DNA from: Candidatus Methylomirabilota bacterium
Lineage (GTDB): Bacteria; Methylomirabilota; Methylomirabilia; Rokubacteriales; CSP1-6
Direction of reading: 5' to 3'
Assembly (NCBI GenBank): GCA_046726415.1
Contig: JBKPAK010000013.1
Coordinates: 1-64,000 of the forward strand
Length of the DNA: 64,000 nucleotides
In this document: positions 12,819 through 42,878 of the stretch, one piece after another
How the letters are laid out: every line of letters starts with the position of its first letter
How positions within the stretch are numbered: the stretch's first letter is position 1
The notes under the pieces: model-generated
Databases searched by the model: none
What the model saw: only the letters and a program-made list of their open reading frames with translations
What the model was told of the DNA's origin: nothing
Position numbers and translations under genes: made by a program

Positions 12819-14663
12819 ATGAACATCCTGGGTATCTCCGCCTTCTATCACGACAGCGCGGCCTGCATCGTCCGCGACGGGGAAATCGTCGCGGCCGCCC
12901 AGGAAGAGCGCTTCACGCGGAAGAAGCACGACGCCGGGTTCCCGAAGCAGGCCCTGGACTACTGCCTCCGGGAGTCGGCGATCCGCCCCGAAGAGCTGGA
13001 CTACGTGGCCTTCTACGACAAGCCGCTCCTGAAGTTCGAGCGCCTGCTGGAGACCTATGTCGCCTACGCGCCGGCGGGGTTCCGATCGTTCATAAACGCG
13101 ATGCCCGTGTGGATCCGTCAGAAGCTCCACCTGCCGCGCGAGCTCGACTGCGGACTCGGCGGCCGATACAAGGGCGGCTACATCTTCACGGAGCATCACG
13201 AGTCCCATGCGGCAAGCGCCTTCTTCCCGTCCCCCTTTGAGGAGGCGGCGATCCTTACGCTCGACGGCGTGGGGGAGTGGGCGACCGGGAGCTACGGGGT
13301 CGGGCGGGGCAATCGGATCCAGCTGACGCATGAGCTGCGGTTTCCCCACTCACTCGGCCTCCTCTACTCTGCCTTCACGTATTTCACCGGCTTCAAAGTG
13401 AATTCCGGGGAATACAAGCTCATGGGCCTCGCCCCGTACGGAGAGCCGCGATTCGCCGACGCCATCCTGCGCCATCTCGTCGATCTAAAGGCCGATGGAT
13501 CGTTTCGTATGGACATGTCGTACTTCAACTACTGCCAAGGCTTGACCATGACCAGTCGCAAGTTCGACGCGCTGTTCGAGGGGCCCCCGCGGCGACCGGA
13601 GTCGCAGCTGACCCAGCGCGAGATGGACATCGCGGCGTCCATCCAGACGGTGACTGAGGAAATCATGCTCCGGTGCGGGCGGCACATTGCGCGAGAGACA
13701 GGCATGCGCAATCTCGTGATGGCGGGGGGGGTGGCGCTCAACTGCGTGGGCAACGGCCGGATCCTCCGGGAGGGTGACTTCGACCAGATCTTCATCCAGC
13801 CCGGCGCCGGCGATGCTGGCGGCGCCATCGGCGCGGCCCTCTTCGTATGGCACCAGCTGCTCGGGAAGCCCCGGCGGGCTGACGGCGTGCGCGACTTCCA
13901 GCGCGGTTCGCTCCTGGGACCCCGCTACAGCAACGAGGAGATCCGCGCCTACCTCGACAGCATCGGGGCGCGCTACCACTACCACGCGGACGAGGCGACT
14001 CTTCTCGAGGTCGTCGCGGACGATATCGCCGCCGAGAAGGTCGTCGGCCACTTTCACGGGCGGATGGAGTTCGGGCCTCGCGCCCTGGGCGCGCGCTCGA
14101 TCATCGGCGACGCGCGCTCGTCGAAGATGCAGTCCCTCATGAATTTAAAGATCAAGTTCCGCGAGTCCTTCCGCCCCTTTGCGCCCTGCGTCCTCCGCGA
14201 GGACGTGCACGAGTGGTTCGAGATGGAGCCGAACGCGGACAGTCCGTACATGCTTCTTGTCGCCGATGTCCAGCCGGACAAGCGGGTGCCGGTCGGCGAG
14301 CACGAGCTGGGCGAGATGACCGGCGTTGACCGGCTCCTCAAGGTCGTCCGGTCGAAGGTGCCGGCGGTGACGCACGTCGACTACTCGGCGCGCGTTCAGA
14401 CGGTCGATGCCGAGCGGCACGGGCGGTTCTATCGATTGATGAAGAAGTTCAAGGAAAAGACCGGCTGCCCTGTGATCATCAATACTAGCTTCAACGTGCG
14501 GAGCGAGCCCATCGTGTGCTCCCCAGAGCACGCGTACCGGTGCTTCATGGCGTGCAACATGGATGTGCTCGTGCTGGAGGACTTCGTGCTCGACAAGGAA
14601 GAGCAGCCCAAAGCCAAGCAGCACGAGATCGACGAATACCTCGCTCAGTTCGACCTGGACTAA
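12819..14663 (+). CDS. O-carbamoyltransferase (NodU/CmcH/SxtI family)
   Basis: MNILGISAFYHDSAA, QEERFTRKKHD, EHHESHAASAF, GGVALNC, EFGPRALGARS, KFRESFRPFAP, NTSFN. Confidence 0.95.
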   Translation: MNILGISAFYHDSAACIVRDGEIVAAAQEERFTRKKHDAGFPKQALDYCLRESAIRPEELDYVAFYDKPLLKFERLLETYVAYAPAGFRSFINAMPVWIRQKLHLPRELDCGLGGRYKGGYIFTEHHESHAASAFFPSPFEEAAILTLDGVGEWATGSYGVGRGNRIQLTHELRFPHSLGLLYSAFTYFTGFKVNSGEYKLMGLAPYGEPRFADAILRHLVDLKADGSFRMDMSYFNYCQGLTMTSRKFDALFEGPPRRPESQLTQREMDIAASIQTVTEEIMLRCGRHIARETGMRNLVMAGGVALNCVGNGRILREGDFDQIFIQPGAGDAGGAIGAALFVWHQLLGKPRRADGVRDFQRGSLLGPRYSNEEIRAYLDSIGARYHYHADEATLLEVVADDIAAEKVVGHFHGRMEFGPRALGARSIIGDARSSKMQSLMNLKIKFRESFRPFAPCVLREDVHEWFEMEPNADSPYMLLVADVQPDKRVPVGEHELGEMTGVDRLLKVVRSKVPAVTHVDYSARVQTVDAERHGRFYRLMKKFKEKTGCPVIINTSFNVRSEPIVCSPEHAYRCFMACNMDVLVLEDFVLDKEEQPKAKQHEIDEYLAQFDLD

Positions 14664-14672
14664 GTGCGCACT

Positions 14673-15119
14673 ATGGCCTTCATCAGCGTCGACTGGAGAC
14701 CGAGCGAGCGCCATCTGCAGGGGTTTGGCACGGCGTGTGTCGTGGCGTTCGGAGCGCTGGGGGCCTGGGCGCTGTGGCGCCACAGCCTGTTCGGTGTGAG
14801 CCTCGAGTCCGGGAGCGCCGGGCGCGCGGCCGTGATCCTGTGGGGGCTCGCCGTCGTGTGTGGAGTGCTGCGCGCAGTCGCCCCGCGGTGGCTGCGGCCC
14901 CTGTACGTCGGGCTGACGGCGGTGAGCCTGCCCATCGGCTTCGTGATGTCCCACGCCGTGATCGGCCTCGTGTTCTTCGGGGTCGTGACCCCCATCGCCC
15001 TAGTGTTTCGGCTGATGGGGCGGGACCCCCTGCGGCGCGCGTTCGATCGCGAGGCAGCGACGTACTGGACGCGGCGAAGTCCGGTCGTTGACCTGGCGAG
15101 ATACTACCGCCAGTTCTAG
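14673..15119 (+). CDS. SxtJ-family membrane protein
   Basis: Three TM segments, VVTPIALVFRLMGRDPL, YW, terminal RQF; directly follows the carbamoyltransferase. Confidence 0.85.
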   Translation: MAFISVDWRPSERHLQGFGTACVVAFGALGAWALWRHSLFGVSLESGSAGRAAVILWGLAVVCGVLRAVAPRWLRPLYVGLTAVSLPIGFVMSHAVIGLVFFGVVTPIALVFRLMGRDPLRRAFDREAATYWTRRSPVVDLARYYRQF

Positions 15120-15128
15120 GAGGGTAAC

Positions 15129-15332
15129 GTGGCCCAGAGCGGTGGGAGACAACAAGAATTCGAGCGGATCGCCAACACGGGGCGGCCGAGCGTGGTGATG
15201 GAGTTCCTGGTCTACCTGCGGGAGAACAAGAAGTGGTGGATGCTACCCATCCTAATCATGATCTTCGGTATGGGGGCGCTGGTTCTGCTTGCCGGTACGC
15301 CGGTCGCGCCGTTCATCTACACCCTTTTCTAG
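15129..15332 (+). CDS. SxtK-like (DUF5989) small membrane protein
   Basis: EFLVYLRENKKWWMLPI...APFIYTLF. Confidence 0.88.
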   Translation: MAQSGGRQQEFERIANTGRPSVVMEFLVYLRENKKWWMLPILIMIFGMGALVLLAGTPVAPFIYTLF

Positions 15333-18476: not shown

Positions 18477-19652
18477 TCACCTAAAGCCTGTCTGAGACGG
18501 GCTTGCCGAGACGTTGAATTGGTGCCCGAGGAAGGCTGCCACAGTTTCGCCTATCACCCTGTAACCGTTCGTGGCGGGGTGCATATCGCGGTCGCTCTTG
18601 GTGTAAATCTGATCTGCGCTCTTACTCCTCAAGGCGGGGAGCGTGTCCACGTATGGAATCTTGGCCTGGTCGAGGAATTCCAGCAAGCGTTGTCTGGCTT
18701 CTCGCTCGTTGTTCACGAGGTCGGCGACCACCTCTTTTAAAGGGAGGTAGGGATCGCGCAAGAGATGGTCCGTAAAGACCGTCTCTTTTGTGGGAATCAG
18801 GACCACCACCAGCTGGCAGCCATTCTCGTGGCATGCGTGGTTCATCAGCGCCAGCAGCTCAAACGTGATGCGCATACCCTCACGCACGGCGGCATTGCTC
18901 TGATCCAATCTGGCCCGGATTCCTATCGGACGAAACGCCTCGTGAATCCTTGGGTTCTCAAGGATTAGAGACGTTACTGCCCCATCAGCCTGTGCGGCTC
19001 GACGAATCTGCAGGGCGCCCTTGAGGGGACCCAGCACGGGGCCGTGAACAATAAGCTGATAGATGACGCTATTGCGGGAAAGCCACGTCCGGAATCTCTG
19101 AGACCCGCCGGGACTCTCGGTCGTAGAGGGCCAAATATTCGCGTCAACGCGATCCCAACTGCCCTTTCTCAGAAAAGACCAGTAGTCCTTTCCATACGTC
19201 ATTAGGAAGGCGTTCTCGAAGTCGTCGCCCATATAGAGGCCACAGAGGACCCAACGCGGCTTCAGCTTGAGCGCGGAGGTCTTAAGCAGATGGTAATACT
19301 GATTCGGCCCGTAACCGCCGAGGCTGAGGCTGTAAACGCGTTCCCCCGTCAGACGCGCCAGCACAGAGGGCCAAGAGGCGGACATCGTCGCGTTATTCCC
19401 GTAGGTGTGGGAGTCGCCGATGGCCACGATGTCGGCGGTCGAGGGCACGCCGAGGTTTCTGAATCCCCACTCATCGAAACCTACCGTCCCAGGGGCGACT
19501 CTGATTCCCAGTATGTCGTCCGGCGCGGTCGTGACCGACAGATAGTCCGCTGGGTTCAGGAGCATGTGGGCGCCCGCCTCACTCAGGAGAAGACCCATGG
19601 TGAGGGAGATGAGCATGACCCCGGCATTGGTGATAATCCGCTTGATTCGCAT
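18477..19652 (-). CDS. SGNH/GDSL hydrolase (AlgX/AlgJ-like polysaccharide O-acyl enzyme)
   Basis: N-terminal TM, GFR, AIGDSHTYG, GYGPNQY, DMHPATNGY; AGGAG upstream of ATG 19652. Confidence 0.85.
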   Translation of the reverse strand: MRIKRIITNAGVMLISLTMGLLLSEAGAHMLLNPADYLSVTTAPDDILGIRVAPGTVGFDEWGFRNLGVPSTADIVAIGDSHTYGNNATMSASWPSVLARLTGERVYSLSLGGYGPNQYYHLLKTSALKLKPRWVLCGLYMGDDFENAFLMTYGKDYWSFLRKGSWDRVDANIWPSTTESPGGSQRFRTWLSRNSVIYQLIVHGPVLGPLKGALQIRRAAQADGAVTSLILENPRIHEAFRPIGIRARLDQSNAAVREGMRITFELLALMNHACHENGCQLVVVLIPTKETVFTDHLLRDPYLPLKEVVADLVNNEREARQRLLEFLDQAKIPYVDTLPALRSKSADQIYTKSDRDMHPATNGYRVIGETVAAFLGHQFNVSASPSQTGFR

Positions 19653-19669
19653 GGCGGGAGGGTGCTCCT

Positions 19670-20075
19670 GGTTACGGTGCAGCGTGGTGTGAAGAGGCGG
19701 CGCCAAGTGAGCGATGCGTTCGGCAGAATGACAAGAGCCGTTCGCGCTGCCTGACGACCGCAGTCGCTCAAGGCGCCGGTGGCCATGTGAAACTGCCCCA
19801 GAAGCTGGACATCCTGTCCATGCGTCCCGCCAAGACGGCGCTTGAAATGGTACGTGCCGGGAGTGGCAGCAGGGACCGGTCGAGATCATAATTCACGAAG
19901 CCTTGCTCTTTCAGCCAGCGGACGAAAGTCCACTGAATGAGGTACGACGCGTTGGTCGTCAGGCCGCCGTCAGTCGTGGCTCTGCAGATGTAGACGCGCC
20001 AATAGCAAAGAAGATCGCGCCCGGCGCAGAGCGTACCGTTGAGGCAGCAGAGAATCACTCTCAGCTTGCGCGCTG
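19670..20075 (-). pseudogene. 3' fragment of a FemAB/GNAT-like gene, frameshifted and cut by the IS block
   Basis: LRVILCCLNG...ATTDGGLTTNASYLIQW...YDL, then in another frame TPGTYHFKRRLGG..GQDVQLLGQF; aligns by eye with the C-terminus of 24489-25583. Confidence 0.75.
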
Positions 20076-20210
20076 CCGGGAAACCGCGCTTGAACGAGCT
20101 GCCCTCGGTGGACAGGCAAAACCCGCCAGTCGTGGACACCTGAAACCGGCCAGTGAGGTAGCAGCCCCAGGACGTTGACGCGGCGGAAGCCGATGTGGTT
20201 CCCCGCCGGG

Positions 20211-20431
20211 ATGGCCAACATCTCGGGAGACGGTGAGAGGCAACAGATTCTCGCTCTGGGACGGCTCGGCTGGCCGCTCCGCCGCATCGAACAGGCGACC
20301 GGGGATCCGGCGGCGAGATGGCGAGTGCCTACCGCAAGGCCGCTGGGATCGCGATCCGGGTCCCCCGCCAGCGCCAGCCGCCGCCAAATCCGGCCAGTCA
20401 GGTGTCCACCGAGCTGGCAAACCCGGCCAGT
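20211..20431 (+). pseudogene. istA: IS21 transposase istA, 5' fragment
   Basis: MANISGDGERQQILALGRLGWPLRRIEQATG HTH start, then frameshift. Confidence 0.7.
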
Positions 20432-20521
20432 GAGATCCTATGAAGGCAAGGAAGAGCGGGCCGCTGCTGGTAAGCTCCTTCAACCTTGTTCGCCCAAACG
20501 AGGGAGAGAGGAGCCAAGACG

Positions 20522-21177: not shown

Positions 21178-21684
21178 CCGCCGGCGCCTACTACGCGCCC
21201 CCACCGGGCTGGCTGGGGCGCGCGGTCGCCGTCCAGTGGGATGAGCATCACGTCCGCTTGCTCGATCACACGACCGGCACGCTCCTCCGCGAACACCCGC
21301 GCCAGCCTCGCGGGCGCCACGCGATCCATCCCGCCGATCGGCCCTGCGCACGCCGCCGACCACGCTGGCCCTGCTGGCCCGGGCCGCGCGGGCCGGCGCC
21401 GCCATCGGCACCTCTGTGAGGCCATCCACCGCCGTGATGGCGAGCCCGGCGTGCGCCGCATCCTCGGCGTCCTCGCCCTCGTGCGCAAGCACGGCGCCGT
21501 CGTGGTCACGGAGGCCGGCGCCGCCTTGGAGTTCGGGGTCGCCGACTACCGCTTCGTCCGCCGCTATCTCGAGCGGCACCCGGCGGGGCCCCTCACCCTG
21601 CGGCAGGTCGATCTGCTCATCCGGGAGCTCACCCACTACCGCGACGTCATCGCGCGGAAAACCCAGGAGGTCCCCATGCCATGA
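21178..21684 (+). pseudogene. istA: IS21 transposase istA, 3' fragment
   Basis: GAYYAPPPGWLGRAVAVQWD..VRLLD..TG.LLREH, then after a frameshift VRRILGVLAL...YRFVRRYLER...IRELTHYRD. Confidence 0.75.
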
Positions 21685-25583: not shown

Positions 25584-25598
25584 GGGATCGCCTAGGAG

Positions 25599-29645: not shown

Positions 29646-29658
29646 CCGTCCGGCTCGG

Positions 29659-33942: not shown

Positions 33943-35177
33943 TGTGCCGGCTCCTCCGAGGCCATCCGCCAGGCCAGATGAGCGAGGGCCTTGAACATCG
34001 TGGCTTGCCCCCAATGGAGCATGGGGGTGGCGGCCTTCAGCAGGGGATAACGCCGATAATGGAAGTAGCCCCGCGGGTCCTGCATGTTCCCGATCGTCCA
34101 CGCCGCCACCCGCTTCGCGAGGTCCAGACACTCAGGATCTGAGTCGGCGAACAGAGCGAGCGTGTCGACCGCCTGGGCCGCGCACTGGATATCCACCGGG
34201 TACGTTCGGGTGTGGTAGTACCTGGGGCGCCCGCTATCCTCGACGAAGTGCGCCTTGAAGAAGGCCAGGCCCCGCGCGAGATGGGGCCGAAACTCCTCGT
34301 CCCCGCTGGCGTCGATGTAGTAGCGAAGGCTGTCGAGGTTGTAGCCGGTGTGGAAGTTGTCGATCCAGTGATACTTTGGCTCCTCCGCATACCACCAGGA
34401 TCCGTCCGGGAGTTGCCGCGAGCAGCTGTAGTCCATGGCGGCGCGCGCCACCCGTCCGCACGCCTTGCTCCCGGTGTGGTTGGCCGCCCGGGCGAGAAGA
34501 CTCGCTCCCAACATGTTGGCGTTGTGAACCGAAATCTGCCGGTCGGCAAGATAACTGAGACACTCGCCCCGCGTGGTGGTCTCGCGGGGCAGCTCGAGGA
34601 TCCATCGGCACGCGCTGTCGGCAATGTTGAGGAACCAATCGTGCCCCGTCAGCTCGAACGCGTCCAGGTAGGCATGGCCGTTCAGGCTCGTCCACACGAT
34701 GATCGGGGCTTCCTTCGTGTACAGGCCTCCGCGCCCGACGAAGTCATAGTGATTGCTCCAGCTGTGATGCCGGAAGCGCGGAGCTTTATGGGCAGCCAGC
34801 CATTCCAGGCAGCGCGTCGCCTTGTCGAGATGCTCTGCCTGGCGCGTGGCTCGATAGAGCGTCAGATATCCCCACGCCATGTAGCCGCGGCCCTTCGTGG
34901 AGTCTTTGGGGCTGACTCCGAGCAGCGGCCGCAGATTCCAGGGGCATTGACGGATGACTTGCTGCAGGATGCGCTCAGCGAGCTGGTTGCCACACGCGAG
35001 CGGGCGCGCCCAGGATGACAGTCCATCAAACGGCTCGTAGCCGCGGTACTCTCGTTGCTCCACCCACGCGGCTACTCGCTCGAGCGTCCGCATGACATCG
35101 CGGCGGGCGATCGCGGGTTGACCACGCGCGATGGTGATTGCGCCGCCGAGCTCAGGCGCTGTCCCTCGATGACGCAT
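33939..35177 (-). CDS. (alpha/alpha)-barrel EPS-associated protein (six-hairpin glycosidase/epimerase-like)
   Basis: GYEPFDGL, VHNANMLGA, QLPDGSWWY, WIDNFHTGY, YPVDI, HWGQA. Confidence 0.7.
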   Translation of the reverse strand: MRHRGTAPELGGAITIARGQPAIARRDVMRTLERVAAWVEQREYRGYEPFDGLSSWARPLACGNQLAERILQQVIRQCPWNLRPLLGVSPKDSTKGRGYMAWGYLTLYRATRQAEHLDKATRCLEWLAAHKAPRFRHHSWSNHYDFVGRGGLYTKEAPIIVWTSLNGHAYLDAFELTGHDWFLNIADSACRWILELPRETTTRGECLSYLADRQISVHNANMLGASLLARAANHTGSKACGRVARAAMDYSCSRQLPDGSWWYAEEPKYHWIDNFHTGYNLDSLRYYIDASGDEEFRPHLARGLAFFKAHFVEDSGRPRYYHTRTYPVDIQCAAQAVDTLALFADSDPECLDLAKRVAAWTIGNMQDPRGYFHYRRYPLLKAATPMLHWGQATMFKALAHLAWRMASEEPAQ

Positions 35178-36454
35178 CACCGGACACCGCCTCCCCTGCC
35201 CACCAGCTCCTCTACGAGCCCCAGCAGGACCTCGCGCTCCTGACGCCAGGCGTGCTCCCAATACATCTTCTGGCCCCGTCTGACCACTTCCGCCGCCCCG
35301 CCAGGGTCGGAGCGCACGGCCTCGATCTTCCGTGCCAGGTCGTCCGCGTCGCCGATCTCGAAGAAAATGAGGGCGTCTTCGCTGAAGTAGTCCAGAATAC
35401 CGCCGGCCCGCGGAGCGATCACGGGCCTCCCGACCGCCAGGTACTCGAAGATCCGCGTCGGTGTGTTGAGCTCCGTGAAGACGCTCCGGTGATTGGGAAT
35501 GATCCCCACGTCACATTCTTCGATGGCCGCGACGATCTCCTCGAGTCGCCTGGGCCCGAGGTACCGAACGGCCTCGGCCAGACCCCGGGCATGGACCGAC
35601 TCCATCACGCGGGTCAGAAACTGGTTCTCGTGACCGTAGATCCTCAGCTCCACGCGGGCGCCGGACGCTCGGAGGCGCGCCACGGCCTCGACGGCCAGCG
35701 CGAGACCGTTTCGCTCGACCAGAGAGCCGTGATACATGATCACGAACGGACGGCTGACATCCTGGCGCACCGCGCTCTCCGAGCCTAACCGCCGCGATCC
35801 GAAGATCTCCTCATCGGGGGAATTCATCACGACCTGGATCTTCTCCGGCCGGCAGCTCCGCGACTCGAACAGCCTCTTGCAGGCGAGATTGACGGTGAGG
35901 GCGAGGTCGGCCTGTCGGATGCTCCACTTCTCCAGGCGCTTCAGCGTGCGAACCCACACGCTCTCCTGGTCGAGGTTGAAAATGGTCATCATCAACTCGG
36001 GCATCGGGTCGTGCAGATCGAGAATCACCTTCGCCCCAAGGGCCTTCGGGACCAAGGCGCTCAGGACCAGGATGTCCGGCATGTTGTGGACATAGACGAG
36101 GTCGTAGCGCCGGGTCAGCGACCGCGCGGTCAGGGTGGTCACGGACGCGAGCACGAATGCCGCGTACTGGAACATGTAGCCGGCGGCTCCCCCGCGGCGC
36201 CGCTCGAGGGGAAGGCGGAGGATGTCGACACCGTTCACGGTCTCACGCCTCGCATCCCCTCCGGCCGCCCTCAGACAGATGAGGTCGACACTCATGCCTT
36301 CCTTGACGAGGGCCTCCGCCGCGCGCCGCGGCCGTGGATCCGCCGGATAGTAGGAGAAGACGACCATGGCCGCGCGCTTGCCTCGGAGGGACCGCCCTGG
36401 GGGCAGGCGCGCCGAGGACCCGGGCCGGGCGAGAACCGGGGTGGTAAATGCCAT
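35177..36454 (-). CDS. Glycosyltransferase family 4
   Basis: YPADPRPRR, VHNMPD, DLHD, YHGSLVERNG, PTRIFEYLAVGRPVI. Confidence 0.92.
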   Translation of the reverse strand: MAFTTPVLARPGSSARLPPGRSLRGKRAAMVVFSYYPADPRPRRAAEALVKEGMSVDLICLRAAGGDARRETVNGVDILRLPLERRRGGAAGYMFQYAAFVLASVTTLTARSLTRRYDLVYVHNMPDILVLSALVPKALGAKVILDLHDPMPELMMTIFNLDQESVWVRTLKRLEKWSIRQADLALTVNLACKRLFESRSCRPEKIQVVMNSPDEEIFGSRRLGSESAVRQDVSRPFVIMYHGSLVERNGLALAVEAVARLRASGARVELRIYGHENQFLTRVMESVHARGLAEAVRYLGPRRLEEIVAAIEECDVGIIPNHRSVFTELNTPTRIFEYLAVGRPVIAPRAGGILDYFSEDALIFFEIGDADDLARKIEAVRSDPGGAAEVVRRGQKMYWEHAWRQEREVLLGLVEELVGRGGGVR

Positions 36455-37248
36455 CACGATTTCGCGCCCACTGGGGCCACCGTGGCTCGGCGCGCTTCCC
36501 GCTCGGCCTTCTTGCGGTTGGACGCCAGGATGGCCTGGAGAATCTCCGAGTGATCGACCAGGCTCAGGATCTCGATGTTGGGAAGGACACAATGACCGCC
36601 GATGATTCCTGGGAAGTATTTGATGGGGGGGAAAAACCGGACTTCCTCGTAGAACGAAACGATCTCGTCATAGTCCTGTCCCAGTTCGTCACAATACCGC
36701 TCCACCTCCTGGGCCCAGGCGATCATGAGGCCGAAATAGGTCGTCTCGGTGAGCTTGGCCAATTCGGTGGCCTCCGGTGAGGCCAGGACGCGGGTTCGCA
36801 TGCCGATCGACGCGAAATGCTCGGCCGCATACTTACCGGCCGCCCGATCGAGGGCGCCCACGAACTTCGTATAGTGGAGGAGTTCCTCGCGCATACGGGC
36901 GTGCTTGCCGCGGATTGGGCTGTGCACCACGGCGGCGCCCGTTCGCTCGGCGATAGCGCGCGTGGTGCCGACCGCCGCTGTGCTGTTGACGATCGTCAGG
37001 GTGGGACGGAAGCGCTCGATATAGCCCGCGGTCTCGCCGACGAAGTCCTTGATCTCGAACGGGTAACAGACGTGCATCACGTCGACGTGCCGGACCTGTT
37101 CGGCGGGAGGCGAGATGTCCACGCCGACCGCCTGGTGGCGCGTGGCGACCAGCTCGAGGAGGGGTTTCCCCACTTCGCCGAGGCCGACGACCACGACCGT
37201 CTGCGGACCATTCATCGCCGGTCCCCGTGGGCCGGGTCCTGAACTCAT
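36454..37248 (-). CDS. Short UDP-glucose/GDP-mannose dehydrogenase-family protein (no C-terminal UDP-binding domain); alternative start 37215
   Basis: GLGEVG, NSTAAVGTT, ELAKLTET, GIIGGHCV. Confidence 0.8.
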   Translation of the reverse strand: MSSGPGPRGPAMNGPQTVVVVGLGEVGKPLLELVATRHQAVGVDISPPAEQVRHVDVMHVCYPFEIKDFVGETAGYIERFRPTLTIVNSTAAVGTTRAIAERTGAAVVHSPIRGKHARMREELLHYTKFVGALDRAAGKYAAEHFASIGMRTRVLASPEATELAKLTETTYFGLMIAWAQEVERYCDELGQDYDEIVSFYEEVRFFPPIKYFPGIIGGHCVLPNIEILSLVDHSEILQAILASNRKKAEREARRATVAPVGAKS

Positions 37249-37277
37249 CGCCGGTCCCCGTGGGCGGGGTCCTGAAC
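37212..37277. repeat. 33-bp tandem duplication of a gene junction (one mismatch)
   Basis: TCATCGCCGGTCCCCGTGGGC(C/G)GGGTCCTGAAC twice, at 37212-37244 and 37245-37277. Confidence 0.95.
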
Positions 37278-38483
37278 GTCAACGGCCTGGCCCGTGGCCC
37301 TCGTGGAAGCTCGGACGCAGGCAGCCACTCGAGCCTGCTGCTCCGCAGAGAGCCCGGGGAACATCGGCAGGGAGAGCACCTGGGAGGCGACCCGCTCCGC
37401 GATCGGGAAGTCACCGGGCCGGAAGGCGAGGGCGTCGTATGCCTTCAGGAGGTGAAGCGGGATCGGGTAGTGGATGCCGGTGCCGATGCCGGCCGCCGCG
37501 AGGTCTTTCTGGAGCCGCTCGCGGTCCGCGACCCGCACCGCGTAGAGGTGGTAGACCGGCCGCGACCAGGACGGCACGTGGGGAACGACGACCGTTCCTG
37601 TGGCGTCGGCGAGGAGCTGATCGTATCCCAAGGCGAGCTCCCGCCGCTGCTCGTTCCACTTTGCCAGGTGGCGAAGCTTCACGCGCAAGAACCCCGCCTG
37701 GATGGCGTCGAGCCGGCCGTTGTAGCCCTCGATATCGTGGAGATACTTCGCCGACTGCCCGTGGTCGCGCAGCATCTGGCAACGCCCCGCCACCGCCTGG
37801 TCATCAGTGGTGACCGCCCCCGCCTCGCCGCAGGCCCCCAGATTCTTTCCCGGATAGAAGCTGAATGCCGCGGCACGGCCCAGGGAGCCCGCCTTGCGCC
37901 ACCGGCCCTCCTTCTTCGAGAAGTACTCCGCACCATGTGCCTGGCAGGCGTCCTCGAGGACGGAGAAGTTGTGCTGCGCGGCCAGCTCGGCGATGGGATC
38001 CATGTCGGCCATCTGGCCATACAAGTGAACAGGGATGACGGCCGTCACGGGCCCCCCCGTCCGCTTGCTCACCCTGCGGCCCGTCCGCTGGTCCGGTGTG
38101 CACTCGGTTTCCAGAAAGGTCCGCAGCTTCTCCGGAGCCAGGGTGTACGTCTGCTCGTCGATGTCGACGAAATCCGGGCGCGCGCCAGCCTGGGAGATCG
38201 CCTCCGCCGTGGCGATGAAGGTGAGCGGCGCCGTCATCACGGTGTCCCCCGGCTGGACGCCGGCTGCCACCAGGGCGAGCCGCAGGGCGTCGGTCCCGCT
38301 GCCCATGCCAACGCAGAGCCGGGTCTCGCAAAACTCCGCAAAGTCGCGCTCGAACTCCTGGACCATGGGCCCGCCGATGAAGCCGGCGGTGTCGAAGGCG
38401 ACCTCCACAACCGAGCGCAGCTCTTCCCGGAGTTCGCGGTGAACGGTGATGAGATCGAGAAAGGGAATCCCACTCCTGCTCAT
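37245..38483 (-). CDS. DegT/DnrJ/EryC1/StrS PLP sugar aminotransferase
   Basis: SGTDAL, PVHLYGQ, EDACQAHG, FSFYPGKNLG, NGRLD. Confidence 0.95.
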   Translation of the reverse strand: MSRSGIPFLDLITVHRELREELRSVVEVAFDTAGFIGGPMVQEFERDFAEFCETRLCVGMGSGTDALRLALVAAGVQPGDTVMTAPLTFIATAEAISQAGARPDFVDIDEQTYTLAPEKLRTFLETECTPDQRTGRRVSKRTGGPVTAVIPVHLYGQMADMDPIAELAAQHNFSVLEDACQAHGAEYFSKKEGRWRKAGSLGRAAAFSFYPGKNLGACGEAGAVTTDDQAVAGRCQMLRDHGQSAKYLHDIEGYNGRLDAIQAGFLRVKLRHLAKWNEQRRELALGYDQLLADATGTVVVPHVPSWSRPVYHLYAVRVADRERLQKDLAAAGIGTGIHYPIPLHLLKAYDALAFRPGDFPIAERVASQVLSLPMFPGLSAEQQARVAACVRASTRATGQAVDVQDPAHGDRR

Positions 38484-41400
38484 GCGCAGCTCTCCCTGGC
38501 AATGTGGTGCACGCCCGCGTGATTCAGATTCGGAAGTTCGTCAGCGAGATTGGGGCGATCGACGTATTCGCGCCAGCTCTTGACCTGCAGATCCGCGGCG
38601 CCCTTCCGGGCCAGCGCTTCGACGAAGCGCTGCGCCAACTGGATGTTGGTGATCAGCGGGATCCCGAAGTCGACGGTTCGCCGGCGGATGATGTAATCGT
38701 TCGTCAGTTCTTCCTCCTGGGAGTTCTTCGGGATGTTGATGACGAGATCGATCCGCTTTTCGCCGAGGTAGTCCAGCACATTGGGTCGGCGCTGATGCTC
38801 CAGCGGCCAGTGCAGCACCGTCGCGTGGATCCCGTGCGCGCGCAGGAACTGCGCCGTCCCCTTGGTGGCGTACAGCTTCAGGCGGAGCGCCCGCAACTGT
38901 TGGCTCGCCTCCAAAAATGCCGCCTTCGCTTCGACCGGCCCGGTGGACAGGAGGACGCTGTGGATCGGGACCCGATAGCCCACGGCCAGGAGCGCCTTGA
39001 GGAAGGCCTCCTCGAAGTCGTCGCCCAGGCAAGCCACCTCTCCCGTCGAGGCCATCTCCACCCCCAGGGTGGGGTCGGCGCCGTCCAGCCGGGTGAACGA
39101 GAACTGCGGGGCTTTGACGCCCACGTAGTTCAGGTCGAACATGGAGCCGTTCATGGGCCCGGTGGCCGTGGGGCTCCGTCCCATCATCACTTCCGTGGCC
39201 AGAGCCACCAAGTTGGTGCCGACGATCTTCGAGACAAACGGGAAGCTTCGCGACGCCCGCACGTTGCACTCGATGACCTTCACCGCGTTGCCCTTGGCGA
39301 TGAACTGGATATTGAACGGCCCTTGAAGGTCGAGGGCCCGCGCGATTCGCTCCGCGATCGTCTTGATGCGTCGAATGGTCTCCAGATAGGTTCGCTGGGG
39401 GGGCAGCACCAAGGTCGCGTCGCCCGAGTGCACGCCCGCGTTCTCCACATGCTCGGTGATGGCGGAGGCGCACACCTCGCCTCGACAGGCGACCACATCG
39501 ATCTCGAGCTCCTTGGCGTTTTCGATGAACTTGCTCACCACCACGGGACGATCAGCTGAGATCCGCGTCGCTTTGTCGAGGAGGGCCGAGAGTTCGCGCG
39601 CGTCGGACGCGACCCCCATCGCGGCACCGCTGAGCACGTAGGAGGGCCGCACGAGGACGGGATACGCGACGCGCTCCGCGAATGCCTGGGCGGACTCGAC
39701 GCTGACTAGTTCCTTCCACTCCGGCTGCTCGATGCCCAAGGTGTCCAGGAGGCGAGAGAACGCGTGACGGTCCTCGGCCGTGTCGATGCTGTGCGCCGAG
39801 GTGCCCAGGATCTTGACGCCCGCGCGATGGAGCGGAATCGCGAGACGGTTGGGGATCTGACCCCCCATGGACACCACCACGCCCAAGGGTCGCTCGCGCT
39901 CGTAGATGGCCAGGACGGACTCCAGGCTCAGCTCGTCAAAGTAGAGCCGATCACACTCGTTGTAGTCCGTGCTGACGGTCTCTGGGTTGTAGTTGATGAT
40001 GATCGTCCGATGGCCCATCCGACCAAGCGTCCGCACGGTATTGACGGCGCACCAGTCGAACTCCACGGAGCTGCCGATGCAGTACGCGCCCGACCCAAGC
40101 ACGATGACGGACTCCTCGTGGGCGCGTTCCACATCGTCTTCGTCGGCGCGGTAGGTGAGGTAGAGATAGTTGGTCCGCGCGGGATACTCGGCGGCCAGGG
40201 TGTCGATCTGCCTCACCCGCGGGCGGATTCCGTAGGCCTCGCGTTGCGCCCGTACTTCCGCCTCGCCGTGGCCCGTGATCTCAGTGATCTGCCGATCGGC
40301 GAATCCCGTCCACTTCGCCTCCCGCATCAGTGGCCGCGGGATGGCCGCCCCCTCGCCACATGCGCGGAGCCGTTCCCCCACCTCCACGATGCGCTGGACC
40401 TTGAGCAGGAACCAGCGGTCGATGCCGGAGAGCTGGTGGATGCGATCGAGCGACATGCCCCGCTGAATCGCCGCGGCGATCGCGAAGATGCGCCCCGGCG
40501 TGGGCTCGGCCAATTCAGCCTCCAGGGCCCCCTGCCGCGGCGCGTTCCTCCCGACGAGTCCCGTCGCCCCGACGTCCAGCATGCGAAGGGCCTTTTGCAG
40601 CGCCTCTTCGAACGTCACCCCGATGGCCATGACCTCACCCACGGACTTCATCCCCGAGCCGATGCGGCGCGAGACCTGTGGGAACTTCTGGAGGTCCCAC
40701 CGGGGGACTTTGACCACGACGTAGTCGAGGGCGGGTTCGAAGCACGCGGTGGTCGCTCCGGTGATGGAATTCCGGAGCTCGGGTAGGCTGCCGCCCAGGG
40801 CGAGCTTGGCCGCCACCAAGGCCAAGGGGTAGCCGGTGGCCTTCGAGGCCAGCGCGGAGCTACGGGACAGCCGGGCGTTGACTTCGATGACCCGGTAGTC
40901 CGCCGAGTGCGGATCGAGGGCAAACTGGATATTGCACTCGCCCACGATGCCGAGATGCCGGACCACCCGGATGGCGATCTGGCGAAGGAGGTGGTACTCC
41001 TGATTCGTCAGCGTTTGGCTGGGCGTAACCACGATGCTTTCGCCCGTGTGGATGCCCAGGGGGTCGAGGTTCTCCATGTTGCAGACGGTGATGCAGTTGT
41101 CGAACTGGTCGCGGACGACCTCGTACTCGACCTCCTTCCATCCGGCGAGGCAGTCTTCGATCAGAACCTGACCGCTGTGGGCCAGCGCCAGGCCGGCGCG
41201 CTCGCGCACCTCGCCCGCGTTCGCGCACACGCCGGACCCGAGGCCTCCCAGCGCATAGCCGGCCCGGAGCATCACCGGGAAGCCGAGCTGGTCGGCGACC
41301 TTCACGGCGCCGTCCACTGAGGTCGCCGGGGCGCTCCGGGGCACCTTCACCCCGATATCGGTCAGCCGGCGGGCGAAGAGATCCCGGTCCTCGGTCGCGC

Positions 41401-41764
41401 GAATCGCCTCGATCGGCGTGCCCAGCACGCGAACCCCGTGATGGCGGAGCACGCCGTGCTCGTCGAGTTCCAGACCGCAGTTGAGGGCCGTTTGCCCTCC
41501 GAATCCCAAGAGGATCCCGTCCGGCCGCTCCCGCTCGATCACGCCCTCCACGAACTGCCGCGTGACCGGCAGGAAATAGACCTGGTTCGCCAGGTACTCG
41601 GAGGTCTGGATCGTGGCAATGTTAGGATTGACCAGAACCGTGGTGATCCCCTCCTCGCGAAGAGCCTTGATGGCTTGGCTTCCGGAGTAATCAAACTCGC
41701 CGGCCTCGCCGATCTTCAGCGCGCCACTCCCCAGGACGAGGACCTTCTCGGGCTTACCGCCCAT
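38480..41764 (-). CDS. carB: Carbamoyl-phosphate synthase large subunit
   Basis: GEAGEFDYSGSQA, HTGES, NARLSRSSALASKATGYP, HSGDA, two ATP-grasp halves, C-terminal MGS domain. Confidence 0.97.
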   Translation of the reverse strand: MGGKPEKVLVLGSGALKIGEAGEFDYSGSQAIKALREEGITTVLVNPNIATIQTSEYLANQVYFLPVTRQFVEGVIERERPDGILLGFGGQTALNCGLELDEHGVLRHHGVRVLGTPIEAIRATEDRDLFARRLTDIGVKVPRSAPATSVDGAVKVADQLGFPVMLRAGYALGGLGSGVCANAGEVRERAGLALAHSGQVLIEDCLAGWKEVEYEVVRDQFDNCITVCNMENLDPLGIHTGESIVVTPSQTLTNQEYHLLRQIAIRVVRHLGIVGECNIQFALDPHSADYRVIEVNARLSRSSALASKATGYPLALVAAKLALGGSLPELRNSITGATTACFEPALDYVVVKVPRWDLQKFPQVSRRIGSGMKSVGEVMAIGVTFEEALQKALRMLDVGATGLVGRNAPRQGALEAELAEPTPGRIFAIAAAIQRGMSLDRIHQLSGIDRWFLLKVQRIVEVGERLRACGEGAAIPRPLMREAKWTGFADRQITEITGHGEAEVRAQREAYGIRPRVRQIDTLAAEYPARTNYLYLTYRADEDDVERAHEESVIVLGSGAYCIGSSVEFDWCAVNTVRTLGRMGHRTIIINYNPETVSTDYNECDRLYFDELSLESVLAIYERERPLGVVVSMGGQIPNRLAIPLHRAGVKILGTSAHSIDTAEDRHAFSRLLDTLGIEQPEWKELVSVESAQAFAERVAYPVLVRPSYVLSGAAMGVASDARELSALLDKATRISADRPVVVSKFIENAKELEIDVVACRGEVCASAITEHVENAGVHSGDATLVLPPQRTYLETIRRIKTIAERIARALDLQGPFNIQFIAKGNAVKVIECNVRASRSFPFVSKIVGTNLVALATEVMMGRSPTATGPMNGSMFDLNYVGVKAPQFSFTRLDGADPTLGVEMASTGEVACLGDDFEEAFLKALLAVGYRVPIHSVLLSTGPVEAKAAFLEASQQLRALRLKLYATKGTAQFLRAHGIHATVLHWPLEHQRRPNVLDYLGEKRIDLVINIPKNSQEEELTNDYIIRRRTVDFGIPLITNIQLAQRFVEALARKGAADLQVKSWREYVDRPNLADELPNLNHAGVHHIARESCA

Positions 41765-42878
41765 GAAGCATTCCGACGAACTCGTCGAAGAGAAACGCCG
41801 TATCGACTGGACCCGGCGTGGCCTCGGGATGAAATTGCACGCTCATGAATGGCCGGGACCGGTGGCGGATCCCTTCATTGCTGTCGTCGTTGGCGTTCCG
41901 GAACCAGACGGCCCAGTCGTCGGGGAGGGTGCGATCGTCCACCGCGTACCCGTGGTTCTGGGCGGTCACATAGCAGTGGCTGGTGCCCACCCACCCACAC
42001 GGCTGATTCTGGCCGCGATGGCCAAACTTCAGCTTGTAGGTGTCCGCCCCCGCGGCAAGCGCCAAGATCTGGTGGCCCAGGCAGATGCCGAAGACGGGGT
42101 ACTCCGCCTCCATGGCCCGCCGTACGTGAGCGATGGTCGGAACACACGTCTTGGGATCGCCCGGCCCGTTGGACACCAGGACGCCGTCGAAGTCCTCTTG
42201 GAAGAAGTCGTAGTCCCACGGCACCCGGATGACGGTCAGCCCCCGGCTGGTCAGGCTGCGGATAATGCTGTTCTTGCTCCCGCAATCCACCAGCACGACC
42301 CGCTTGTCACCTGAGCCGTAGATCACCGGCTCCTTGACACTGACCAGCGACACCAGGTTGTCTTGGTTGGGATCGCGCAACTCGACGTCCTCGTCGGCGG
42401 CCACGATCTTGCCCAGCATCACCCCACGCTCGCGCAAGCGCTTGGTCAGGGCCCGGGTGTCGACTTCCCCCAGGCCCGGCACTCCTTGCTCGGCCAGCCA
42501 CTGCCCCAAGCTCTTGGCGGCGCTCCAGTGGCTGTAGTGGACCGAGGCTTCGGCGACGACAAGGCCGGTGATCTGGATTTCCCCGGATTCGAAGGTCAGG
42601 TCCAGTCCGTCCGCCATGCGGCGTTCAGGCACCCCGTAGTTGCCGACCAGGGGATACGTGAGCACGAGGATCTGGCCCTTGTACGAGGGATCGGTCAACG
42701 CTTCGGGGTATCCAACCATTCCGGTATTGAAGACGACCTCGCCGCTCACCGCGGCCGGGAAGCCGAAGGGAAGACCGGGGAACACGGACCCGTCCTCGAG
42801 AACGAGCCATGCACGCCGCGTTTCCTCGTCGGCCGCCAGCGCGTACGTCTTCTCAGAGTCGCCGCCCACGCATCTCAC
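41754..42878 (-). CDS. carA: Carbamoyl-phosphate synthase small subunit
   Basis: GEVVFNTGMVGY, TDPSY, SNGPGDP, GICLGHQ, QNHGY, QFHPE. Confidence 0.97.
   Translation of the reverse strand: MRCVGGDSEKTYALAADEETRRAWLVLEDGSVFPGLPFGFPAAVSGEVVFNTGMVGYPEALTDPSYKGQILVLTYPLVGNYGVPERRMADGLDLTFESGEIQITGLVVAEASVHYSHWSAAKSLGQWLAEQGVPGLGEVDTRALTKRLRERGVMLGKIVAADEDVELRDPNQDNLVSLVSVKEPVIYGSGDKRVVLVDCGSKNSIIRSLTSRGLTVIRVPWDYDFFQEDFDGVLVSNGPGDPKTCVPTIAHVRRAMEAEYPVFGICLGHQILALAAGADTYKLKFGHRGQNQPCGWVGTSHCYVTAQNHGYAVDDRTLPDDWAVWFRNANDDSNEGIRHRSRPFMSVQFHPEATPGPVDTAFLFDEFVGMLHGR

What the first reader, a model, noticed from the sequence alone, without database searches (positions are those of the whole stretch)
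12819..42878. EPS locus carries its own carbamoyl-phosphate synthase together with an SxtIJK-type carbamoyltransferase
Seen: intact carA-carB lie inside the sugar operon, overlapping each other and the DegT gene, with no pyr or arg genes nearby. NodU-SxtJ-SxtK follows the priming transferase on the other strand. CarB motifs (AGEFDYSGSQA, SSVEFDWC) look like the Bacteroidota/eukaryote-type enzyme rather than the E. coli type. Known: NodU-family enzymes use carbamoyl phosphate plus ATP. Inference: a dedicated supply for bulk O-carbamoylation of a polysaccharide; SxtJ/K may be membrane partners.
Basis: partly seen in the sequence, partly recalled or inferred. Interest (0 to 1): 0.75.

Follow-up and report, generated by a model that had tools for sequence, protein, structure and literature searches.

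The report
Sugar-coat operon with private carbamoyl-phosphate synthase
A soil bacterium keeps a second, differently derived copy of the enzyme that makes carbamoyl phosphate inside a long surface-polysaccharide operon, and in relatives this copy sits directly beside the enzyme that attaches carbamoyl groups, so it most likely feeds carbamoylation of the sugar polymer.

Summary
carA (41754..42878) and carB (38480..41764) are intact and overlap each other and DegT. They lie mid-way in a roughly 38-kb one-directional Wzx/Wzy polysaccharide operon headed by a NusG paralog. A TobZ/GdmN-type carbamoyltransferase (CT), SxtJ and DUF5989 follow the priming transferase on the other strand.

This carAB is an extra copy. 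The housekeeping carAB lies in a pyrR-pyrB-pyrC-carA-carB-pyrF operon on contig C292, with 44% CarB identity. The extra CarB scores higher against human CPS1 than against E. coli CarB, and the housekeeping copy does the reverse.

The link to the CT recurs. CT-SxtJ-DUF5989-carA-carB is contiguous in G082, G183 and metagenome contig L122. A CT lies within 4 kb of carB in L160, L163, L195 and L127. In G021 a recent duplicate of the housekeeping carAB sits behind CT-SGNH. Syntenic operons in G034 and G057 carry the CT trio exactly where the window has carAB.

Best reading (about 0.7): a dedicated carbamoyl-phosphate supply for polysaccharide O-carbamoylation. It is accessory, because CT orthologues also occur without it. 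Four paper searches found no description. The scan earlier noted a private CarAB beside a CT in an NRPS cluster on other DNA (e1-2720529). No chemistry or expression data exist, and SxtJ/K partnership with the CT is untested.

The parts
41754..42878 (-). carA, the glutamine amidotransferase small subunit of the extra carbamoyl-phosphate synthase. The GICLGHQ and HPE motifs are present.
   Evidence: Pfam CPSase_sm_chain plus GATase. TIGR01368 448.8 bits against a cutoff of 307. Motifs read. 42-47% identity to the housekeeping CarA on C292.
38480..41764 (-). carB, the large subunit of the extra carbamoyl-phosphate synthase (1094 aa, CPS1/Bacteroidota-like type). It overlaps carA by 11 nt and DegT by 4 nt.
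   Evidence: TIGR01369 1463 bits against a cutoff of 1027. Pfam domains. PDB scores 1216 bits to CPS1 against 832 to E. coli CarB. 44% identity to the housekeeping CarB. dN/dS 0.12-0.20 against G183, G082 and G154.
37245..38483 (-). DegT/PseC-like sugar aminotransferase, translationally coupled to carB.
   Evidence: PF01041 353 bits. ATGA overlap. A DegT orthologue (77%) follows the CT trio in G034, and a DegT-like gene follows carB in G183.
12819..14663 (+). TobZ/GdmN/NovN-family O-carbamoyltransferase (CT), predicted soluble.
   Evidence: Carbam_trans_N 349 bits plus Carbam_trans_C 233 bits. GdmN E 2e-89 and TobZ about 1e-69. No hydrophobic segment.
14664..15119 (+). SxtJ-family small membrane protein.
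   Evidence: PF19588 41.2 bits against a cutoff of 24.4. 2-3 hydrophobic segments. Found next to the CT in 9 aligned loci, on either side of it.
15129..15332 (+). DUF5989 small single-pass membrane protein, in the position SxtK holds in sxt clusters. Invariant C-terminal APFIYTLF.
   Evidence: PF19451 65.5 bits against a cutoff of 27. Alignment A3. One hydrophobic segment.
8465..12813 (+). Head of the + strand operon: GNVR chain-length protein (8465..10105), GFO/IDH/MocA oxidoreductase (10592..11659) and the priming polyprenyl-phosphate sugar transferase. The transferase ORF runs from 11305, with a likely start near 11656, to 12813.
   Evidence: Pfam. TIGR03025 269.9 bits.
18477..19889 (-). 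SGNH/AlgX-like protein, the last gene of the long minus-strand operon.
   Evidence: Lipase_GDSL_2 and ALGX. SGNH genes flank the CT in G082, G021, L160 and L195.
20061..37248 (-). Operon body: unknown 482 aa, Wzy (22634..24040), FemAB-like, methyltransferase, GT2, AsnB-like amidotransferase, unknown 298 aa, YdjC, GT2, unknown 616 aa, unknown 440 aa, GT4 and a short NDP-sugar-dehydrogenase-like ORF.
   Evidence: Pfam and NCBIfam. Orthologues lie in the same order in G034 and G057.
42915..56977 (-). Upstream part of the same operon: cupin, GT, two CheR-like methyltransferases, pyruvyl transferase, Wzx flippase (48133..49716), amine-oxidase-like protein, epimerase/dehydratase, DRL oxidoreductase, RmlC-like epimerase, PIG-L deacetylase, hexapeptide acyltransferase and the NusG paralog (56438..56977) at the head.
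   Evidence: Pfam.

Best explanation
The window holds a Wzx/Wzy-type exopolysaccharide locus of a Methylomirabilota (Rokubacteria) soil bacterium; that organism name comes from earlier scan notes and I did not check it.

A second glutamine-dependent carbamoyl-phosphate synthase (CarAB) is co-transcribed with the sugar genes. Its product is used by the locus's soluble TobZ/GdmN-type carbamoyltransferase. That enzyme converts carbamoyl phosphate plus ATP to carbamoyl-AMP and transfers the carbamoyl group to a hydroxyl of a sugar of the repeat unit. It probably acts at the inner membrane, where the small membrane proteins SxtJ and DUF5989 would hold it.

The housekeeping CarAB lies in a PyrR-type pyr operon, so its expression should follow pyrimidine need. 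The private copy uncouples carbamoyl-phosphate supply for the polymer from that control. It is an accessory booster rather than an obligatory part, because related operons carry the CT trio without it.

Shown here: gene identities, the second copy, the recurrent and independently arisen linkage, and purifying selection. Inferred: co-transcription, the flow of carbamoyl phosphate to the CT, the acceptor, the role of SxtJ/DUF5989 and the regulatory rationale.
For: 1) Second copy. The own genome has two carB and two carA. The C292 copy lies in pyrR-pyrB-pyrC-carA-carB-pyrF.

2) Rarity. A window-type CarB was found in 5 of 251 genomes of the phylum at E<=1e-290. Among the 61 genomes of the order, including G000, only G000, G002 and G021 have an extra carB.

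3) Linkage.
- G082: SGNH-CT-SxtJ-DUF5989-carA-carB inside an exosortase EPS locus.
- G183: FemAB-like-CT-SxtJ-DUF5989-carA-carB-DegT-like.
- L122: CT-SxtJ-DUF5989-carA-carB.
- L160: carA-carB-SxtJ/DUF5989-CT-...-SGNH.
- L195: carA-carB-regulator-SGNH-CT-SxtJ.
- L127: SxtJ-DUF5989-CT transcribed divergently from carA-carB.
- L163: CT 3.6 kb behind carB.
These five metagenome contigs have 38-67% GC.

4) Independent origin. G021's extra CarB is 89% identical to G021's own housekeeping CarB and is its sister in the tree (support 99 and 96*), yet it sits directly behind CT-SGNH. An AU test rejects one clade for the 9 CT-linked CarBs (p 8.45e-5).

5) Synteny. G034 and G057 have the same operon order, PIG-L-CT-SxtJ-DUF5989-DegT or DH-GT4-...-AsnB-Wzy. 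The CT trio lies exactly where the window has carA-carB.

6) Background. A CT lies in 5 of 159 loci around window-type carB (0 of 79 genome loci, 5 of 80 metagenome loci), all within 4 kb. pyr-like genes lie in only 7 of the same 159 loci.

7) Function kept. dN/dS is 0.12-0.20, the allosteric domain is as conserved as in housekeeping pairs, and the GICLGHQ and HPE motifs are present in CarA.

8) The CT is homologous to solved carbamoyl-phosphate- and ATP-using enzymes GdmN, NovN and TobZ.
Against: In the window itself the CT and carAB lie 24 kb apart, on opposite strands, in convergent operons.

CT orthologues of 60-82% identity in G050, G030, G005, G057, G034, G008 and G040 occur in genomes where no extra carAB was found. 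The CT therefore works on housekeeping carbamoyl phosphate elsewhere.

The same-genus genome G002 has its extra carAB (65% identity, read in at least three frames) beside aromatic-degradation and ABC-transporter genes, with no CT on that stretch.

For L160, L163, L195 and L127 I cannot tell whether the CT-linked carAB is an extra copy or the only one. In G082 and G183 no housekeeping CarB was found, though their pyr operons are missing or broken at contig ends.

The contexts of the 117 closest database CarBs are unknown.

The AU-test group was named after I had seen the tree.

There is no carbamate chemistry, no enzyme assay and no expression data.
Confidence: 0.7

Rival explanations
1. Pyrimidine booster. 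The extra CarAB raises UMP/UTP synthesis so that enough UDP- and dTDP-sugars are available during heavy polysaccharide production. It has no special tie to the carbamoyltransferase.
For: carAB lies among nucleotide-sugar-modifying genes. A paper links capsule production to uracil metabolism in S. pneumoniae (PMC5863508; I saw only the search listing and the start of the abstract).
Against: No pyrB, pyrC, pyrD, pyrE or pyrF accompanies the extra copy. The gene it recurs with is the CT trio, in at least 7 other loci. Syntenic operons in G034 and G057 do without it. From general knowledge, nucleotides are released and recycled after glycosyl transfer.
Confidence: 0.1
2. Carbamoyl phosphate goes to another acceptor or enzyme of the locus. 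One example would be N-carbamoylation of the amino sugar made by the adjacent DegT aminotransferase, through one of the unassigned proteins rather than the NodU-family CT.
For: carB is translationally coupled to DegT, and a DegT-like gene also follows carB in G183. Four operon proteins have no family assignment.
Against: No ATCase/OTCase-type transcarbamylase is present in the window. The unassigned proteins (298, 440 and 616 aa) have orthologues in the carAB-less operons of G034 and G057. In G082 carB is followed by a UDP-GlcNAc 2-epimerase, not DegT. The CT is the only constant neighbour.
Confidence: 0.1
3. Pathway-specific second CPS of the Bacillus kind (one pyrimidine-controlled enzyme and one for arginine), or simply a redundant horizontally acquired passenger whose place in the EPS operon is incidental.
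For: The housekeeping copy lies in a PyrR-type pyr operon, as pyrAA/AB does in Bacillus (the Bacillus comparison is recalled). The extra copy is of a foreign type. G002's copy looks decayed and lies in another context.
Against: No arg genes are nearby. 246 of 251 genomes of the phylum showed no window-type CarB, so the phylum manages arginine with one CPS. Purifying selection acts on the extra copy. Operon coupling and recurrent CT adjacency, including an independent duplication in G021, argue against an incidental position.
Confidence: 0.07

Closest known systems
O-carbamoyltransferases of the NodU/CmcH/TobZ family inside biosynthetic clusters: TobZ, GdmN and NovN (solved structures), SxtI, and WapO (PA5005), the putative enzyme for the 7-O-carbamoyl-heptose of the Pseudomonas LPS core
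   Same: The two-domain architecture is the same (Carbam_trans_N plus Carbam_trans_C) and the sequence homology is strong (GdmN E 2e-89). Carbamoylation of a surface glycan by such an enzyme is already accepted for Pseudomonas core oligosaccharide (PMC8005017, passages read).
   Different: None of the papers I saw describes those clusters as carrying their own carbamoyl-phosphate synthase. Here carAB is part of the operon or directly adjacent.
sxtI-sxtJ-sxtK-sxtL block of cyanobacterial saxitoxin clusters
   Same: The gene set is the same: CT, SxtJ-family protein (PF19588), a roughly 50-aa protein behind it and a GDSL/SGNH protein nearby. [quoted passage not shown]
   Different: The context here is a polysaccharide operon, not an alkaloid pathway. 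The papers seen do not list a carAB in sxt clusters. Whether DUF5989 is SxtK's family was not tested.
Bacteria with two carbamoyl-phosphate synthases (Bacillus subtilis PyrAA/AB and CarAB; recalled, from no call)
   Same: There are two full CarAB sets in one genome, one of them in a pyr operon with PyrR.
   Different: The second set is not in an arginine operon but in an EPS operon. It is of a different phylogenetic type and is present in only 5 of 251 genomes of the phylum.
Earlier scan note e1-2720529: an NRPS cluster with a CT and a private CarAB in a Cardinium endosymbiont (AI note, unchecked)
   Same: The logic is the same: a carbamoyltransferase with its own horizontally acquired CarAB in one gene block.
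   Different: There the product is a peptide, and that CarB was said to have lost its regulatory sites. Here the context is a polysaccharide locus and the allosteric domain is conserved.

Membership tests
Glutamine-hydrolysing carbamoyl-phosphate synthase, large subunit CarB (TIGR01369) | Score above the curated equivalog cutoff over the full length | tested here: met
   1463.2 bits against a cutoff of 1027, residues 4-1051 on profile positions 5-1052.
Glutamine-hydrolysing carbamoyl-phosphate synthase, large subunit CarB (TIGR01369) | Two ATP-grasp halves, an oligomerisation domain and a C-terminal MGS-like allosteric domain | tested here: met
   CPSase_L_D1 twice, CPSase_L_D2 twice, CPSase_L_D3 and MGS.
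Glutamine-hydrolysing carbamoyl-phosphate synthase, large subunit CarB (TIGR01369) | Carbamoyl-phosphate synthesis activity and its allosteric control | not testable with these tools
   Needs complementation of a carAB auxotroph or an enzyme assay. Only conservation was measured.
CarA small subunit (TIGR01368) | Score above cutoff, and class-I amidotransferase catalytic Cys and His/Glu motifs | tested here: met
   448.8 bits against a cutoff of 307.35. GICLGHQ and HPE read in the translation. That these motifs hold the catalytic triad is recalled.
NodU/CmcH/TobZ O-carbamoyltransferase family | Kae1-like N-terminal domain plus YrdC-like C-terminal domain (Pfam PF02543 plus PF16861) | tested here: met
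   349.1 and 233.3 bits. Homology to GdmN, NovN and TobZ.
NodU proper (NF041651 equivalog) | Score above the equivalog cutoff | tested here: not met
   126.3 bits against a cutoff of 1000. It is a family member, not a NodU orthologue.
SxtJ family (PF19588) | Score above the gathering cutoff, and position directly beside a CT | tested here: met
   41.2 bits against a cutoff of 24.4. The gene starts 1 nt after the CT stop.
SxtK | Homology to SxtK of sxt clusters | not tested
   Only DUF5989 (PF19451, 65.5 bits) was shown. Its size and position match sxtK (165 bp, behind sxtJ; PMC2679770). No SxtK sequence was available to me.
Wzx/Wzy-dependent polysaccharide locus | Priming phosphoglycosyl transferase, Wzx flippase, Wzy polymerase, chain-length proteins and glycosyltransferases | tested here: met
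   Bac_transf, Polysacc_synt_3, Wzy_C, GNVR and AAA_31, GT2 twice, GT4 and other GTs.
Dedicated precursor-supply gene inside a biosynthetic cluster | A housekeeping paralogue elsewhere in the genome, and recurrent linkage to the consuming enzyme in other genomes | tested here: met
   for the paralogue. for the linkage.
Dedicated precursor-supply gene inside a biosynthetic cluster | Co-expression with the cluster and flux of the product into the cluster's end product | not testable with these tools
   No RNA run holds the stretch. No chemistry is available.

The most novel reading that the evidence does not exclude
carAB plus CT plus SxtJ plus DUF5989 (with an SGNH protein) is a self-contained, horizontally mobile 'carbamoylation cassette' for cell-surface glycans.

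It has been assembled at least three times independently: from CPS1-like carAB lineages, and from a fresh duplicate of the E. coli-type gene in G021. The CarB clade around the window would then be a lineage specialised to feed carbamoyltransferases rather than pyrimidine or arginine synthesis. In the FastTree tree this clade has 124 rows, and all 7 members of known context are CT- or EPS-linked.

The sxtIJKL block of saxitoxin clusters would then descend from such a glycan cassette.
Probability: 0.3. Interest if true: 0.7.

Novelty: new variant of a known kind. Interest (0 to 1): 0.55.

Why it matters
Carbamoyl phosphate is normally treated as a shared, tightly regulated intermediate of arginine and pyrimidine synthesis. 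A private synthase wired into polysaccharide operons would show that some bacteria budget it separately for decorating their surface.

It would also give a genomic marker for carbamoylated exopolysaccharides in uncultured soil phyla. It supplies a comparative context, in glycan loci, for the SxtJ and SxtK-like proteins, which the two 2009 sxt papers I read list as 'unknown' or 'hypothetical'.

For engineering, a CT expressed together with its own CarAB may be a ready-made module for carbamoylating products without draining primary metabolism.

Tried and rejected
- Complex prediction (CT + DUF5989 + SxtJ, alignments A1, A3 and A2) never ran. SxtJ/K binding to the CT therefore remains untested.
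- No RNA holder is listed for window 36400-43000, so there is no expression evidence either way.
It returned mostly 52-69% relatives and missed the closest ones.
- The listing of cluster members on 10 close hits gave almost no organism names.
- I looked for decay of the allosteric domain in the window clade and found none.
- I asked whether G082 and G183 have replaced their housekeeping carAB. This cannot be decided. G183 shows no pyrB or pyrF at all, and G082's pyrF lies at contig ends.
- The phylum-wide search with the housekeeping CarB left 140 matches unlisted and scored only three candidates per genome, so I did not use it to count duplicates.
- My greedy ORF picker missed the CT in G183 because it chose the opposite strand. 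tblastn corrected this.
- A Bacteroidota-specific origin is rejected. The 25 Bacteroidota CarB rows I read are about 57-61% identical (not a full tally), less than the Rokubacteria, Deltaproteobacteria and Nitrospirae hits at 70-78%.
- Looking up earlier scan notes by sequence and by relatives gave nothing relevant.

Full report
WHAT IS THERE

The ORF list, Pfam and NCBIfam show one large Wzx/Wzy-type polysaccharide locus.

On the minus strand, genes run without a change of direction from a NusG paralog (56438..56977) to an SGNH/AlgX-like gene (18477..19889). In order they are:
- hexapeptide acyltransferase, PIG-L deacetylase, RmlC-like epimerase, DRL oxidoreductase, epimerase/dehydratase and an amine-oxidase-like protein;
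- Wzx (48133..49716), two CheR-like methyltransferases, a pyruvyl transferase, a GT and a cupin;
- carA (41754..42878), carB (38480..41764) and DegT (37245..38483);
- a short NDP-sugar-dehydrogenase-like ORF, GT4, two unassigned proteins, GT2, YdjC, an unassigned protein and an AsnB-like amidotransferase;
- GT2, a methyltransferase, a FemAB-like protein, Wzy (22634..24040) and an unassigned protein.

On the plus strand, converging on this operon, lie GNVR, a GFO/IDH/MocA oxidoreductase, the priming transferase (ending at 12813), the carbamoyltransferase (CT, 12819..14663), SxtJ (14664..15119) and DUF5989 (15129..15332).

carA and carB overlap by 11 nt. carB and DegT overlap by ATGA.

CarB passes the TIGR01369 equivalog cutoff (1463 against 1027 bits) and CarA passes TIGR01368 (449 against 307 bits). 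CarA shows GICLGHQ and HPE.

The CT is homologous to GdmN, NovN and TobZ but is not a NodU orthologue (126 bits against a cutoff of 1000). SxtJ has two to three hydrophobic segments, DUF5989 has one and the CT has none.

No pyr-like gene is in the window.

Contigs of soil-metagenome runs from different studies bridge every junction from GT4 to the GT upstream of carA. The arrangement is therefore not an assembly chimera.

IS IT A SECOND COPY?

Yes. The genome (7.6 Mb, 98% complete) has a second carB on contig C292 at 44% identity, and a second carA.

That copy lies in pyrR-pyrB-pyrC-carA-carB-pyrF. The only PyrB, PyrF and PyrR of the genome are there.

The two copies are of different types. 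The window CarB scores 1216 bits to human CPS1 and 832 to E. coli CarB. The C292 copy scores 830 and 1312.

The best database hits to the window CarB are 70-97% identical. Where they carry names, they come from Rokubacteria, Deltaproteobacteria, KSB1 and Nitrospirae MAGs. The 25 Bacteroidota CarB rows I read are about 57-61% identical (I did not tally them all).

HOW COMMON IS THE EXTRA COPY AMONG KIN?

In the 61 genomes of the same order (including G000), all but two have a CarB match. Nearly all of those matches are the E. coli-type gene at 43-46% identity to the window CarB.

Extra copies are seen only in G002 (same genus, 65% identity) and G021. I read the other multi-match rows as pieces of one gene, either adjacent on one contig (G038, G054, G057) or at contig ends (G013, G020, G023).

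Across the 251 genomes held for the phylum, a window-type CarB (E<=1e-290) occurs in five: G000, G002, G154 (83%), G183 (77%) and G082 (76%).

These tallies include genomes flagged unpublished (G025, G011, G135, G104, G094). No specific conclusion rests on them.

THE LINKAGE TO THE CARBAMOYLTRANSFERASE

- G082 is in another family of the class. Its order is SGNH, CT, SxtJ, DUF5989, carA, carB, UDP-GlcNAc 2-epimerase, SGNH, AsnB, Wzy, inside an exosortase-type EPS locus.
- G183 reads FemAB-like, CT, SxtJ, DUF5989, carA, carB, DegT-like on a 9.9-kb contig. My ORF picker had missed this CT.
- G154's carB lies at a contig end, next to Wzy, Wzx and AsnB. What lies upstream is unknown.
- G002's copy reads in at least three frames. 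It lies beside LigB, amidohydrolase and ABC-transporter genes, while G002's housekeeping carB is intact. It looks like a decaying copy in another context.
- G021 carries CT, SGNH/AlgX-like, carA, carB. This CarB is not of the window type. It is 89% identical to G021's own housekeeping CarB over 733 residues and is its sister in both trees (support 99, 96*). A different carAB has therefore been duplicated and placed behind a CT, independently.

Outside the phylum, I scanned the 159 loci that the search for related loci returned around window-type carB (2.54 Mb; 79 from genomes, 80 from metagenomes). A CT is present in 5 of them: none of the 79 genome loci and 5 of the 80 metagenome loci. In each case the CT lies within about 4 kb of carB:
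- L122: CT-SxtJ-DUF5989-carA-carB (carA confirmed);
- L160: carA-carB-SxtJ/DUF5989-CT, then SGNH;
- L195: carA-carB-sensor regulator-SGNH-CT-SxtJ;
- L127: SxtJ-DUF5989-CT divergent from carA-carB;
- L163: carB-two methyltransferases-unknown-CT.

Their GC contents range from 38 to 67%, so they come from different lineages.

For scale, pyr-like genes occur in only 7 of the same 159 loci.

SYNTENY EXPLAINS THE 24-KB GAP IN THE WINDOW

G034 (same family) and G057 (same order) have operons with the window's gene order: NusG, hexapeptide transferase, RmlC, (DRL), PIG-L, then CT-SxtJ-DUF5989. These are followed by DegT (G034) or the short dehydrogenase-like ORF (G057), GT4, the unassigned proteins, GT2, YdjC, AsnB and Wzy.

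The CT trio thus sits exactly where the window has carA-carB, immediately upstream of DegT. Taken with G183 (trio-carA-carB-DegT-like), the simplest history is an operon with trio-carAB-DegT. In the window's lineage the trio then moved behind the priming transferase on the other strand.

G034 and G057 have no extra carAB. Neither do the other genomes with CT orthologues of 60% identity or more: G050, G030, G005, G008 and G040. The private CarAB is therefore accessory.

PHYLOGENY

A FastTree tree of 294 CarB rows was rooted on the E. coli-type copies.
- It places the window CarB with G154, G082 and G183 in a 27-row clade (support 100).
- L122 joins in a 41-row clade (support 99).
- L160 and L163 join in a 124-row clade (support 100).

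In that last clade, all 7 rows of known context are CT- or EPS-linked. The other 117 are database proteins whose context I could not fetch.

L195 and L127 lie in other clades of the same type, and G021 lies in the E. coli type.

An IQ-TREE quick tree of 51 rows agrees. An AU test rejects a single clade for the nine CT-linked rows against 25 rows of other context (p 8.45e-5). The group was named after the tree was seen, and G021 alone would force this result.

IS THE EXTRA COPY FUNCTIONAL?

Pairwise dN/dS of the extra carA and carB between G000 and G183, G082 and G154 is 0.12-0.20, with dS near saturation.

The allosteric domain is as conserved relative to the catalytic domains as it is between housekeeping orthologues. 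I see no sign that regulation was lost.

MECHANISM

Shown: a second, intact, selected CarAB inside the EPS operon; a TobZ-type CT with SxtJ and DUF5989 in the same locus; recurrent and independently arisen adjacency of the two.

Established knowledge: TobZ-family enzymes use carbamoyl phosphate and ATP via carbamoyl-AMP. This is recalled, and is consistent with the GdmN paper found, of which I saw only the abstract.

Inferred:
- CarAB supplies the CT.
- The acceptor is a sugar of the repeat unit.
- The membrane proteins SxtJ and DUF5989 position the soluble CT at the membrane.
- The reason for a private copy is that the housekeeping genes sit in a PyrR-type operon, whose expression follows pyrimidine pools.

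RIVALS

A pyrimidine or UDP-sugar booster is unlikely. No other pyr gene travels with the extra copy, and the constant neighbour is the CT.

A different carbamoyl acceptor linked to DegT cannot be excluded. However, no transcarbamylase is present, and the unassigned proteins also occur in the carAB-less operons.

An arginine-specific second CPS or a mere passenger fits poorly with the rarity in the phylum, the absence of arg genes, the purifying selection and the G021 duplication.

WHAT IS KNOWN

Four full-text searches found no paper describing a carbamoyl-phosphate synthase inside a polysaccharide locus or paired with an O-carbamoyltransferase. The library lacks most subscription journals, so this is not proof of absence.

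O-carbamoylated surface glycans and their putative CTs are known, for example WapO and the Pseudomonas LPS core (PMC8005017, passages read).

sxtI, sxtJ, sxtK and sxtL (a GDSL lipase) stand together in saxitoxin clusters, and SxtJ and SxtK are listed as unknown or hypothetical (PMC2679770 and PMC2684587, passages read). The glycan loci here show the same four-gene neighbourhood.

The scan itself has noted a CT with a private CarAB once before, in an NRPS cluster of a Cardinium endosymbiont (e1-2720529; an unchecked AI note, not independent evidence).

VERDICT

The finding is a new variant of a known kind: a precursor-supply paralogue embedded in a biosynthetic cluster, applied here to carbamoyl phosphate and surface glycans.

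It rests on context only. Chemistry, activity, expression and the SxtJ/DUF5989 partnership remain to be shown.

Noticed in passing
L039 (G021:C19:60000-75808) and L216 (G021:C110:1-771): G021's duplicated CarB is 89% identical to its housekeeping copy over residues 1-733. A 2.2-kb contig carries a CarB C-terminal piece (residues 798-1056) that is only 60% identical to the housekeeping copy. If this piece is the tail of the duplicate, its second half and allosteric domain have diverged much faster than the rest.
   Followed up: partly
L037/L038 (G002:C10:128785-133073): The same-genus genome G002 has an extra carA plus a carB that reads in at least three frames (one TAG). It lies beside LigB/LigXa, amidohydrolase and ABC-transporter genes, with hexapeptide-transferase and DegT-like genes 7 kb downstream. 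It is probably a decaying copy.
   Followed up: partly
window 18477-19889; L201:16376-17413; L039:10871-12340; L160:9671-10759; L195:15760-16962: An SGNH/GDSL (often AlgX-like) gene recurs next to the CT trio. This parallels sxtL (a GDSL lipase, proposed decarbamoylase) next to sxtIJK in saxitoxin clusters. Its role in glycan loci is open.
   Followed up: no
window 36454-37248 (-): A short ORF (264 aa) matches only the middle of NDP-sugar dehydrogenases (profile positions 113-302 of 413). It is conserved at 76% identity in G057's syntenic operon, so it is a kept short gene rather than a fresh pseudogene.
   Followed up: partly
window 2-5500 (+): There is the tail of an NRPS module (condensation, adenylation, carrier domains), followed by an ABC transporter and a thioesterase with a TubC-type docking domain. 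This is a separate secondary-metabolite cluster at the window's left end.
   Followed up: no
alignments A1, A2, A3: All three trio proteins end in conserved C-terminal motifs. The CT ends in F-E/D-L-D in 9 of 10 sequences (one, L223, reads F-E-P-D). SxtJ ends in R/K-Q-F in most sequences. DUF5989 ends in an invariant APFIYTLF. Conserved termini might be contact points.
   Followed up: no
window 7308-8468, 58229-59704, 59718-61582, 62306-63763: The locus is flanked by two sigma-54 activators, an AAA_22 ATPase, a ParA/AAA_31 tyrosine-kinase-like protein and a beta-barrel porin-like protein. These resemble accessory genes of exosortase/PEP-CTERM EPS loci. G082's related locus has an exosortase EpsH.
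   Followed up: no
G252 (genome of L082): C61:218155-221340 and C78:4435-7599: An unrelated MAG also has two CarBs, one of the window type (66% identity) and one at 40%, with no CT within 10 kb of the former. Two-type CarB genomes may be more common than assumed.
   Followed up: no
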